Notes under the pieces: model-generated | Told to the model about the DNA's origin: nothing | The model's input: the letters and a program-made list of their open reading frames with translations, nothing else | Database searches by the model: none | Position numbers and translations under genes: made by a program | Assembly: GCA_009914755.4 (NCBI GenBank) | Contig: CP068257.2 | Coordinates: 8,672,001-8,736,000 of the forward strand | Reading direction: 5' to 3' | Source: the human T2T-CHM13v2.0 reference genome, Homo sapiens | Length of the DNA: 64,000 nt | Part shown: positions 54,130 to 54,417 of the stretch, one piece after another | Layout: each line of letters starts with the position of its first letter | Numbering within the stretch: the first letter of the stretch is position 1

Positions 54130-54301
54130 GCTGAGGCAGGTGGGCGCCGGGCTATTTCAGCGTTGGTGGAGGGCGGGCTGGGTAGCTGTGTGTCTGCTGC
54201 TCCTTCTCGCGTTTCTCCTGCCTCTGTAATCCCACCTTAGCCATGAGGGAAATAGTGCTCACGCAGGCCAGGCAGTAAGGGAACCAGATCGGCGCCAAGG
54301 T
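54130..54301 (+). pseudogene. Beta-tubulin (TUBB8-like) 5' relic: promoter/5'UTR-like GC-rich segment plus a 57-nt exon-1 pseudo-CDS (54243-54299, 'MREIVLTQARQ*GNQIGAK') ending at the conserved exon1/intron1 GT donor (54300-54301); exons 2-4 not present
   Basis: 'atgagggaaatagtgctcacgcaggccaggcagtaagggaaccagatcggcgccaag|gt'. 16/19 residues identical to TUBB8 N-terminus MREIVLTQIGQCGNQIGAK (the 'LTQ' is TUBB8-specific as recalled). In-frame TAA at codon 12. Exon 1 of all beta-tubulin genes ends after …IGAK. No tubulin-like sequence found in 54300-57770. Confidence 0.7.
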
Positions 54302-54417
54302 TGTATTTGACTCCATAAAAATTAAAATTTTGTATGAGAGAAAAATGCCTCAAAGTCAAAAGTCAACAGACTGGGGAAATAGATCTGCAACATACATGAC
54401 AGACAAAAAGCTAATTT

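What the first reader, a model, noticed from the sequence alone, without database searches (positions are those of the whole stretch)
54130..54320. TUBB8-like beta-tubulin exon-1 relic with conserved splice donor, fused behind a truncated ERV1
A 57-nt reading frame 'MREIVLTQARQ*GNQIGAK' (54243-54299) reproduces the first exon of beta-tubulin and best fits the TUBB8 variant (LTQ…GNQIGAK). It ends precisely at the exon1/intron1 boundary with a GT donor and has a TAA at codon 12. The ERV1 integrase homology stops ~140 bp upstream and no exons 2-4 follow. TUBB8 paralogs/pseudogenes are a hallmark of human subtelomeric and pericentromeric duplicons, so this small relic is the best clue to the genomic context of the window. 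It is also an example of how duplicon breakpoints sit inside retroelements.
Basis: partly seen in the sequence, partly recalled or inferred. Interest (0 to 1): 0.6.

Follow-up and report, generated by a model that had tools for sequence, protein, structure and literature searches.

The report
Beta-tubulin TUBB8 exon-1 pseudogene stump
This is a real but dead leftover of a duplicated primate egg-cell tubulin gene (TUBB8): only its promoter and first exon survive because one old deletion of about 7 kb removed the rest, and the stump was later copied many times, which is ordinary for this kind of duplicated DNA.

Summary
Window 54243-54299 (+) reads MREIVLTQARQ*GNQIGAK and is followed by GT. It is a genuine TUBB8-family exon 1, not a chance match. 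About 15 kb upstream and 4 kb downstream are collinear with four intact TUBB8-family loci (two chimpanzee, one macaque, one capuchin).

Two parts of the interpretation fail.
- The truncated gammaretrovirus-like ERV directly upstream is not a duplicon breakpoint or a fusion peculiar to the relic. The same ERV-tail/promoter junction lies upstream of intact TUBB8 genes from New World monkey to chimpanzee, so it is ancestral.
- Exons 2-4 are missing because of a 6.5-7.6 kb internal deletion. It runs from intron-1 position +5 into an L1 fragment 4.4-5.5 kb past the gene, with a 2-bp TG microhomology at the junction.

The exact junction occurs in 12 independent metagenome contigs that are 92-99.5% identical to the window. 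These copies form one clade, so the deletion happened once and the stump was then re-duplicated. The promoter and exon evolve faster than their flanks (CpG decay). The TAA is private to this copy; relatives have TGC or TAC.

Verdict: an ordinary unprocessed pseudogene fragment in a segmental duplication. A mir-4477 hit at 4152-4232 is an additional clue to genomic context. Interest is low.

The parts
39218..54108 (+). Upstream flank of the TUBB8-family duplicon. It is collinear with the 10 kb upstream of intact TUBB8-family genes. Window 47217-51579 is absent from chimpanzee L001 but mostly present in macaque L002 and chimpanzee L004.
   Evidence: blastn: window 39218-46957 matches L001 1-7018 at 86-91%, and 51580-54303 matches L001 7349-10061 at 93%. 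Window 47027-54303 matches L002 3398-10061, and 46017-54303 matches L004 1-10061. Window 50386-54303 matches capuchin L003 5836-10061 at 83%.
49528..54108 (+). Gammaretrovirus-like (ERV1) internal region running gag, RNase H, integrase. It is 3'-truncated at the end of pol and interrupted by a ~285-bp dispersed repeat at 52066-52352 (Alu-like by eye). It is ancestral to the TUBB8 5' flank.
   Evidence: Pfam Gag_p30 at 49528-49716 (E 5e-4, below cut-off), RNase_H at 52584-52937 (E 2e-10), rve at 53373-53630 (E 0.007, below cut-off). PDB best hits are XMRV/MoMLV RNase H at E 8e-22, plus PFV integrase at E 1e-3. The same sequence lies upstream of the capuchin, macaque and chimpanzee genes.
54109..54242 (+). 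TUBB8-family proximal promoter and 5'UTR (GC boxes and the GGGCTATTTCAGCG motif), partly CpG-decayed.
   Evidence: It aligns column by column with L001-L004. In the 202-bp promoter plus exon 1, the window has 10 CpG against 17 in the chimpanzee and macaque genes and 5 in capuchin. It is the most variable segment among relic copies (pi 8.9% against 2.3% in the flank). There is no similarity to the class I TUBB promoter.
54243..54299 (+). TUBB8-family exon 1 relic, MREIVLTQARQ*GNQIGAK, with TAA at codon 12 (54276-54278).
   Evidence: Nucleotide identity is 86.0% to L001 and L004, 87.7% to macaque L002, 78.9% to capuchin L003 and 77.2% to class I TUBB. Sister relic copies read ...AGQC... or ...ARQY..., so the stop is private to this copy.
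54300..54303 (+). First four bases of intron 1 (GTTG), including the GT donor. The deletion junction follows, with TG (54302-54303) shared by both flanks.
   Evidence: Intact loci read AAG|GTTGGC and the window reads AAG|GTTGTA. Left flank ...GGTTG^GCAGCC and right flank ...CTGATG^CATTTGAC in L001. The blastn HSPs overlap by 2 nt at 54302-54303.
54304..54449 (+). Right flank of the deletion: a diverged L1 ORF2 C-terminal fragment that lies 4.4-5.5 kb downstream of intact TUBB8-family genes.
   Evidence: It matches L001 16600-16747 (91%), L002 17665-17820 (93%) and L004 17347-17497 (91%). The peptide FDSIKIK...DKKLI matches ORF2 of the window's own L1 at 33162-33043, 35% identity, E 3e-4 in a 1.4-kb search.
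54421..54534 (.). (TA)n/(CA)n microsatellite at the site of a second gap. About 1.25 kb present in L001 and L002 is absent here and in L004.
   Evidence: TRF reports period 2 with 57 copies. L001 16748-17999 and L002 17821-19104 have no counterpart in the window. L004 runs straight through.
54525..58695 (+). Downstream flank of the duplicon, collinear with the 3' flank of intact loci. It contains an old L1 ORF2 fragment in minus orientation.
   Evidence: It matches L001 18000-22163 at 89.7%, L002 19105-21579 and L004 17468-19389. Window about 55200-55880 aligns at 67% to L1 ORF2 regions of the window, and those elements are L1 by Pfam.

Best explanation
The feature is the stump of an unprocessed TUBB8-family (class VIII beta-tubulin) paralogue inside a primate segmental duplication.

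Proposed order of events:
1. Ancestral duplicon. It carried a 3'-truncated gammaretrovirus-like ERV, then the TUBB8 promoter, then the four-exon gene, then a flank rich in L1 fragments. This arrangement was in place before New World and Old World monkeys split.
2. Deletion. In one copy, a single end-joining deletion of roughly 6.5-7.6 kb removed everything from intron-1 position +5 to a point inside an L1 fragment 4.4-5.5 kb past the gene. It left the promoter, exon 1, the first four intron bases (GTTG) and a 2-bp TG microhomology at the junction.
3. Re-duplication. The deleted version was then copied into at least about ten distinguishable copies.
4. Decay. Lacking a gene to serve, the promoter and exon have decayed, with CpG loss. 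In this copy codon 12 went from TGC to TAC to TAA.

The relic most likely does nothing.

Shown here: the homology, the collinearity, the junction, the monophyly of junction-bearing copies and the elevated divergence of the promoter and exon.
Inferred: the repair mechanism, the order of events, the lack of function, and that the metagenome contigs are paralogues in one host rather than orthologues in several.
For: - Only exon 1 of TUBB8 is present in the window.
- Left flank: window 51580-54303 equals the sequence ending at intron-1 +4 in L001 (93%), L004 (92.4%), L002 (about 91%) and L003 (83%).
- Right flank: window 54302-54452 and 54525 onwards continue in the same order and orientation 6.5 kb (L001), 7.6 kb (L002) and 7.3 kb (L004) further on in the intact loci.
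- The junction has TG microhomology.
- The ERV-tail/promoter junction is present in the capuchin, macaque and chimpanzee genes.
- The exact 29-nt junction occurs in 12 independently assembled metagenome contigs at 91.7-99.5% identity to the window.
- A neighbour-joining tree puts all junction-bearing copies in one clade. It is sister to the two intact chimpanzee paralogues, with macaque outside and capuchin as outgroup.
- Exon 1 in the relic copies reads AGQC, TGQC, ARQY or ARQ*.
- Diversity among 10 relic copies: promoter 8.9%, exon 4.9%, ERV flank 2.3%. CpG count is 10 against 17.
- The donor is weakened from GTTGGC to GTTGTA.
Against: - The size of the deletion is inferred from paralogous or orthologous loci that differ among themselves (6.5-7.6 kb). 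The true parent copy was not available.
- A second ~1.25-kb gap at the (TA)n tract shows the region changed in more than one step, so the rearrangement may have been complex rather than one clean deletion.
- The host species of the 12 metagenome contigs is unknown. Some of their divergence could be between species rather than between paralogues.
- No expression or methylation data could be consulted, so 'does nothing' is inference only.
- CpG count alone is weak evidence, because the apparently intact capuchin gene has only 5 CpG in the same segment.
Confidence: 0.88

Rival explanations
1. One reading: the relic marks the edge of a duplicon. A partial TUBB8 copy ending in intron 1 was joined to a truncated ERV1 on one side and to unrelated acceptor DNA on the other, illustrating breakpoints inside retroelements.
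For: The ERV is indeed 3'-truncated about 135 bp before the ATG. The sequence right after the exon is a retroelement, an L1 fragment.
Against: The ERV/promoter junction is shared with four intact TUBB8-family loci, including a New World monkey. The DNA after the junction is the normal 3' flank of the same duplicon, in the same order and orientation, for at least 4.3 kb. Both sides therefore belong to one duplicon and the duplicon does not end here.
Confidence: 0.04
2. The retained promoter, exon 1 and splice donor still work as a transcription start and first exon for a non-coding or chimeric transcript. That transcript might be oocyte-expressed like TUBB8, and might arise from many copies.
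For: The ATG context, the GT donor and much of the GC-rich promoter survive. All 13 junction-bearing sequences keep AAG|GT. In intact loci, downstream L1-derived sequence is used as an exon: gibbon model P0047 ends in a peptide that L001 encodes at about 16.78-16.85 kb.
Against: The promoter and exon are the fastest-evolving segments among relic copies (8.9% and 4.9% against 2.3%), so there is no purifying selection. Seven of 17 CpGs are lost. The donor lost its +5 G. The L1-derived exon used in gibbon lies in the ~1.25-kb piece that is missing here.
Confidence: 0.07
3. Chance similarity, a processed (retro-copied) tubulin pseudogene fragment, or an assembly artefact.
For: The coding match alone is short (19 codons, tblastn E 8e-4).
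Against: Kilobases of non-coding flank align to TUBB8 loci (E = 0.0). The promoter and four intron bases are retained and there is no exon 1-exon 2 fusion, so it is not a retrocopy. The junction is found in 12 independent assemblies.
Confidence: 0.01

Closest known systems
TUBB8 / TUBB8B and the TUBB8P unprocessed pseudogenes (the TUBB4Q subfamily) of primate subtelomeric and pericentromeric duplicons
   Same: The exon-1 peptide carries the family-specific Leu6-Thr7. The promoter/5'UTR, upstream ERV and downstream L1-rich flank are the same. Intact relatives lie 51-390 kb from chromosome ends. The literature describes a TUBB8-family duplicon shared by 10p and 18p. TUBB4Q at 4q35 and a subfamily of dispersed loci are recalled from memory (van Geel et al. 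2000) and were not read here.
   Different: Only exon 1 survives. Intron 1 from +5, exons 2-4 and 4.4-5.5 kb of 3' flank are deleted, and there is a stop at codon 12. I could not establish whether this copy already has a TUBB8P number in gene catalogues.
Gammaretrovirus-like endogenous retrovirus (ERV1 class) internal sequence
   Same: The order is gag (p30), RNase H, integrase on one strand. The RNase H is closest to XMRV/MoMLV among solved structures.
   Different: It is heavily decayed, with stops and frameshifts. It lacks env and a 3' LTR, and ends at the integrase tail next to the tubulin promoter. The ERV subfamily was not determined because no repeat library was available.
Class I beta-tubulin gene TUBB (Theropithecus locus L017)
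   Same: Exon 1 has the same length and ends at the same AAG|GT boundary.
   Different: Exon identity is only 77% and the peptide is MREIVHIQAGQC... There is no detectable similarity in the promoter/5'UTR.

Membership tests
TUBB8-family (class VIII beta-tubulin) locus | Exon-1 peptide with the family-specific Leu6-Thr7 (MREIVLTQ...GNQIGAK) | tested here: met
   The window reads MREIVLTQARQ*GNQIGAK. Among 136 retrieved beta-tubulins, LT occurs in only 21, all in the primate TUBB8 group (nearly all named tubulin beta-8); the others have HI, HL, HV or HM.
TUBB8-family (class VIII beta-tubulin) locus | Non-coding flanks (promoter, 5' and 3' flank) collinear with bona fide TUBB8 genes | tested here: met
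   Flanks are 83-93% identical to L001-L004 over kilobases on both sides. There is no promoter similarity to class I TUBB.
TUBB8-family (class VIII beta-tubulin) locus | Complete four-exon gene with an open reading frame (needed to call it a gene rather than a fragment) | tested here: not met
   No exons 2-4 are found anywhere in the window. There is a TAA at codon 12. A 6.5-7.6 kb stretch is deleted relative to intact loci.
Unprocessed (duplicated) pseudogene, as opposed to processed retrocopy | Retains promoter and intron sequence at the exon boundary, with no exon-exon fusion and no poly(A) | tested here: met
   The promoter aligns to the family. The exon is followed by the intron bases GTTG, as in intact genes.
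Segmental-duplication (duplicon) family member | Several diverged copies of the same structure exist elsewhere | tested here: met
   Twelve metagenome contigs carry the identical junction, at 91.7-99.5% identity to the window. In the 1.3-kb tree region, pairwise divergence among 10 of the copies is about 1-6%. Whether all come from one host genome is not known.
Segmental-duplication (duplicon) family member | Subtelomeric or pericentromeric location of this particular copy | not testable with these tools
   No reference primate genome could be searched with DNA. Indirect clues are the intact relatives lying 51-390 kb from chromosome ends and the mir-4477 hit at 4152-4232. From memory only, MIR4477A/B map to the chr9 pericentromere.
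ERV1 (gammaretrovirus-like) element | Pol domains closest to gammaretroviruses, and a gag p30 | tested here: met
   RNase H matches XMRV/MoMLV at E 8e-22. Pfam RNase_H is above its cut-off. Gag_p30 and rve are present but below their cut-offs.
ERV1 (gammaretrovirus-like) element | Flanking LTRs, and assignment to a named HERV family | not tested
   No repeat library was available. No 3' LTR can be present, because pol abuts the tubulin promoter.

The most novel reading that the evidence does not exclude
The stump family (promoter, exon 1 and donor, amplified to ten or more copies) may keep TUBB8-like germline promoter activity and seed non-coding or chimeric transcripts from pericentromeric or subtelomeric duplicons.

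A related possibility is that the conserved abutment of a gammaretroviral pol tail to the TUBB8 promoter reflects an ERV-associated birth or regulation of this primate-specific oocyte tubulin gene. Published correlations between ERV1 and TUBB8/TUBB8P8 expression in oocytes (PMC8450412) could then partly reflect this physical linkage.
Probability: 0.06. Interest if true: 0.45.

Novelty: new member of a known kind. Interest (0 to 1): 0.15.

Why it matters
It matters little for biology. It is one more decayed fragment of a gene family already known to be scattered by primate segmental duplication.

It has some practical uses:
- It corrects the picture of the locus. The ERV is part of the ancestral TUBB8 5' flank, and the real rearrangement is an internal deletion.
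- The junction GGCGCCAAGGTTG|TATTTGACTCC is a clean, unique marker for one sub-lineage of the TUBB8 duplicon. It could be used to count and date copies in telomere-to-telomere assemblies.
- These stumps carry TUBB8 exon 1 and an adjacent ERV1. They can therefore attract multi-mapping reads in TUBB8 variant calling (a clinical infertility gene) and in oocyte transposable-element expression analyses.

Tried and rejected
- Exons 2-4 elsewhere in the window: none on either strand.
- Human TUBB8 DNA: human TUBB8 is not a cluster representative in the protein database. Two gibbon models were not on record. Chimpanzee, macaque, capuchin and gelada loci were used instead.
- FRG1 and FRG2 (neighbours of TUBB4Q at 4q35): tblastn with sequences recalled from memory gave no hits in the window.
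- Naming the CpG-rich 5-11 kb region: concatenated ORFs from it (1,712 aa as submitted) were searched against 5.8 billion proteins with no hit at E <= 1e-10.
- Chromosomal location of MIR4477A/B from the literature: the papers found give no coordinates. They say only that the loci overlap blacklisted or unassembled regions.
- A shared tubulin promoter between TUBB8 and class I TUBB: no similarity upstream of the exon, so the origin of the 134-bp promoter segment stays open.
- L1 identity of 54304-54449: blastn and tblastx against the window's L1s were negative. Only a small-space tblastn supports it (E 3e-4).
- Correction: the output mixed loci L002 and L003 because both were in one file. It was redone cleanly.

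Full report
**1. Observation**

Window 54243-54299 on the + strand translates to MREIVLTQARQ*GNQIGAK. The next bases are GTTGTA, so a GT sits exactly where beta-tubulin intron 1 begins. A TUBB8 protein recalled from memory, used only as a probe, hits this exon alone in the whole 64-kb window (E 8e-4). Every other hit has E >= 0.39, so exons 2-4 are absent on both strands.

**2. Is it TUBB8-family, and more than chance?**

A protein search returned primate proteins named tubulin beta-8. Most of them begin MREIVLTQAGQCGNQIGAK, so the relic differs from the common family N-terminus only by G10R and C12stop. Among the 136 beta-tubulins fetched, Leu6-Thr7 occurs in only 21, all in the primate TUBB8 group (nearly all named tubulin beta-8). 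All others have HI, HL, HV or HM.

The decisive evidence is non-coding. I fetched genomic loci for four intact family members:
- L001, chimpanzee
- L002, pig-tailed macaque
- L003, capuchin
- L004, a second chimpanzee paralogue

Window 51580-54303 aligns to L001 7349-10061 at 93% (E = 0.0). It also aligns to L004 at 92.4%, to L002 at about 91% and to L003 at 83%. Each alignment ends at locus position 10061, which is the fourth base of intron 1.

The promoter/5'UTR aligns column by column. Against a class I TUBB locus (gelada, L017), only the 57-nt exon aligns, at 77-79%, and nothing upstream does.

**3. The ERV**

Pfam finds three domains, all on the + strand:
- Gag_p30 at about 49.5 kb (E 5e-4, below the curated cut-off)
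- RNase_H at 52584-52937 (E 2e-10)
- rve at 53373-53630 (E 0.007, below the curated cut-off)

The best solved-structure matches of the RNase H are XMRV/MoMLV (E 8e-22). This is a decayed gammaretrovirus-like (ERV1) gag-pol. By eye, its integrase tail ends near 54108.

The same tail, abutting the same promoter, lies upstream of the intact genes in capuchin (read directly), macaque and both chimpanzee loci. The ERV/TUBB8 juxtaposition therefore predates the platyrrhine-catarrhine split and belongs to the functional gene's 5' flank. It is neither a fusion peculiar to this relic nor a duplicon breakpoint.

**4. Why exons 2-4 are missing**

Past 54303 the window continues in the same orientation with sequence that lies further downstream in the intact loci.

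| Window segment | L001 | L002 | L004 |
|---|---|---|---|
| 54302 to about 54450 | 16600-16747 | 17665-17820 | 17347-17497 |
| 54525 onward (54505 for L004) | 18000-22163 | 19105-21579 | 17468-19389 |

The window thus lacks 6.5 kb (L001), 7.6 kb (L002) or 7.3 kb (L004). The missing stretch covers intron 1 from +5, exons 2-4 and 4.4-5.5 kb of 3' flank.

At the junction the left side reads ...AAGGTTG^GCAGCC and the right side ...CTGATG^CATTTGAC in L001. The window reads AAGGTTG TATTTGAC, a 2-bp TG microhomology typical of end joining.

The right breakpoint lies in a diverged L1 ORF2 fragment. Support for this is modest: 35% identity over 40 residues to the window's own L1 ORF2, E 3e-4 in a small search, after negative blastn and tblastx.

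There is also a second gap of about 1.25 kb. It is present in L001 and L002 and absent in the window and in L004, and it coincides with the (TA)n tract at 54421-54534.

**5. The stump is itself a repeat family**

The 29-nt junction string occurs exactly in 12 independently assembled metagenome contigs, presumably host contamination. They are 91.7-99.5% identical to the window over up to 9.6 kb.

In a neighbour-joining tree of window 53020-54303, all junction-bearing copies form one clade. That clade is sister to the two intact chimpanzee paralogues, with macaque outside and capuchin as outgroup. The deletion therefore happened once, and the stump was then duplicated or inherited into at least about ten distinguishable sequences.

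Their exon-1 frames read ...AGQC......TGQC......ARQY... or, in the window alone...ARQ*. This suggests TGC to TAC to TAA in this lineage. An assembly artefact is excluded.

**6. Function**

Diversity among ten relic copies, by segment:

| Segment | Pairwise diversity |
|---|---|
| ERV flank | 2.3% |
| Promoter/5'UTR | 8.9% |
| Exon 1 | 4.9% |

The window has 10 CpG in the 202-bp promoter-plus-exon segment, against 17 in the chimpanzee and macaque genes. The capuchin gene has only 5, so this measure is weak on its own. The donor changed from GTTGGC to GTTGTA and lost its +5 G.

Nothing indicates constraint. The most likely state is an inert, CpG-decaying pseudogene fragment. Residual promoter activity was not testable here.

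**7. Context**

The three intact relatives on assembled chromosomes lie 51-390 kb from a chromosome end. A 2026 preprint describes a TUBB8-family duplicon shared by human 10p and 18p.

The window also contains a strong mir-4477 match at 4152-4232 (89 and 87 bits on the two strands) and a 5S-rRNA-like sequence at 10421-10538. From memory, MIR4477A/B map to the human chromosome 9 pericentromere. The papers I could read say only that these loci fall in blacklisted or poorly assembled regions. I could not establish the species or the chromosomal position of the window with these tools.

**8. Verdict**

The identity as a TUBB8-family exon-1 relic is right. The ERV 'fusion/breakpoint' reading is wrong. 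The absence of exons 2-4 is explained by one old internal deletion that was later propagated. This is an ordinary product of segmental-duplication dynamics, a new member of a known kind, and of low interest.

Noticed in passing
window 4152-4232 (both strands): Strong Rfam match to the mir-4477 precursor family (89.3 and 87.1 bits; gathering score 74). From memory, MIR4477A/B lie in the human chr9 pericentromeric duplications. This is an additional clue to the window's context beside the tubulin relic.
   Followed up: partly
window 10421-10538 (-): 5S rRNA-like sequence (48.2 bits; gathering score 38), probably a 5S pseudogene. It sits at the edge of a CpG-rich block.
   Followed up: no
window about 5000-11000: GC-rich block (49-59% G+C in 2-kb bins) with many long ORFs on both strands. 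Concatenated ORFs from it (1,712 aa as submitted) found no protein homologue at E <= 1e-10, so there is no evidence of a coding gene.
   Followed up: partly
window 88-707 and 3192-3423: A GT-rich minisatellite (period about 50, about 12 copies in all) and a 75-bp tandem repeat (3.1 copies, 92% matches).
   Followed up: no
L001 about 16780-16850, missing from the window at 54450-54524: The L1-derived stretch CAAATTGAAAAATGG...ATTTGCTAA encodes QIEKWTRDVKKQFKETCRFLNIC*. This is exactly the C-terminus of the gibbon 'tubulin beta-8-like isoform X1' model P0047. Some TUBB8-family gene models therefore splice into this downstream L1 fragment.
   Followed up: partly
window about 54055-54099 (ERV integrase tail; GTAAAG at 54094-54099): The chimpanzee UniProt model P0114 begins QRQGIHRWIHLCGN..., which is the translation of the ERV integrase tail (the window reads QRQGSHRWVHLCGSK). 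A donor-like GTAAAG sits there. Some family members are modelled with an ERV-derived alternative first exon.
   Followed up: no
L008 11716-11744 (-) and 12622-12650 (+): One metagenome contig, 99.5% identical to window 54423-64000, carries the deletion junction twice in inverted orientation about 900 bp apart. This is either a fold-back assembly or amplification chimera, or a real palindromic copy.
   Followed up: no
window 47217-51579 against L001 7348/7349: The chimpanzee paralogue L001 lacks 4.4 kb of the ERV (including the gag region) that the window has; L002 and L004 hold most of it. The duplicon copies differ by several independent kilobase-scale deletions.
   Followed up: partly
window 54300-54420 across 10 relic copies: The L1 flank just right of the junction is unusually invariant: 2 variable columns in 121, pi 0.6%, against 2.3% in the ERV flank. 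About 19 nt of this is ascertainment from the exact-match search, and the rest may reflect AT-rich, CpG-free sequence.
   Followed up: no
literature (PMC8450412) against window 49.5-54.3 kb: A paper reports that ERV1 expression correlates with TUBB8 and TUBB8P8 expression in human oocytes. An ERV1 internal fragment directly abuts the TUBB8-family promoter in all loci examined. Read-through or multi-mapping from these duplicons could contribute to that correlation. This is speculation.
   Followed up: no
window 25.8-29.3 kb (-), 32.3-36.8 kb (-), 60.05-60.5 kb (-): The 32.3-36.8 kb element is a fairly young L1 with long ORF fragments (ORF1 Transposase_22 at E 2e-60; RVT_1 and endonuclease matches). 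The 60.05-60.5 kb ORF also matches RVT_1. The 25.8-29.3 kb element looks like L1 by ORF content but was not scanned.
   Followed up: partly
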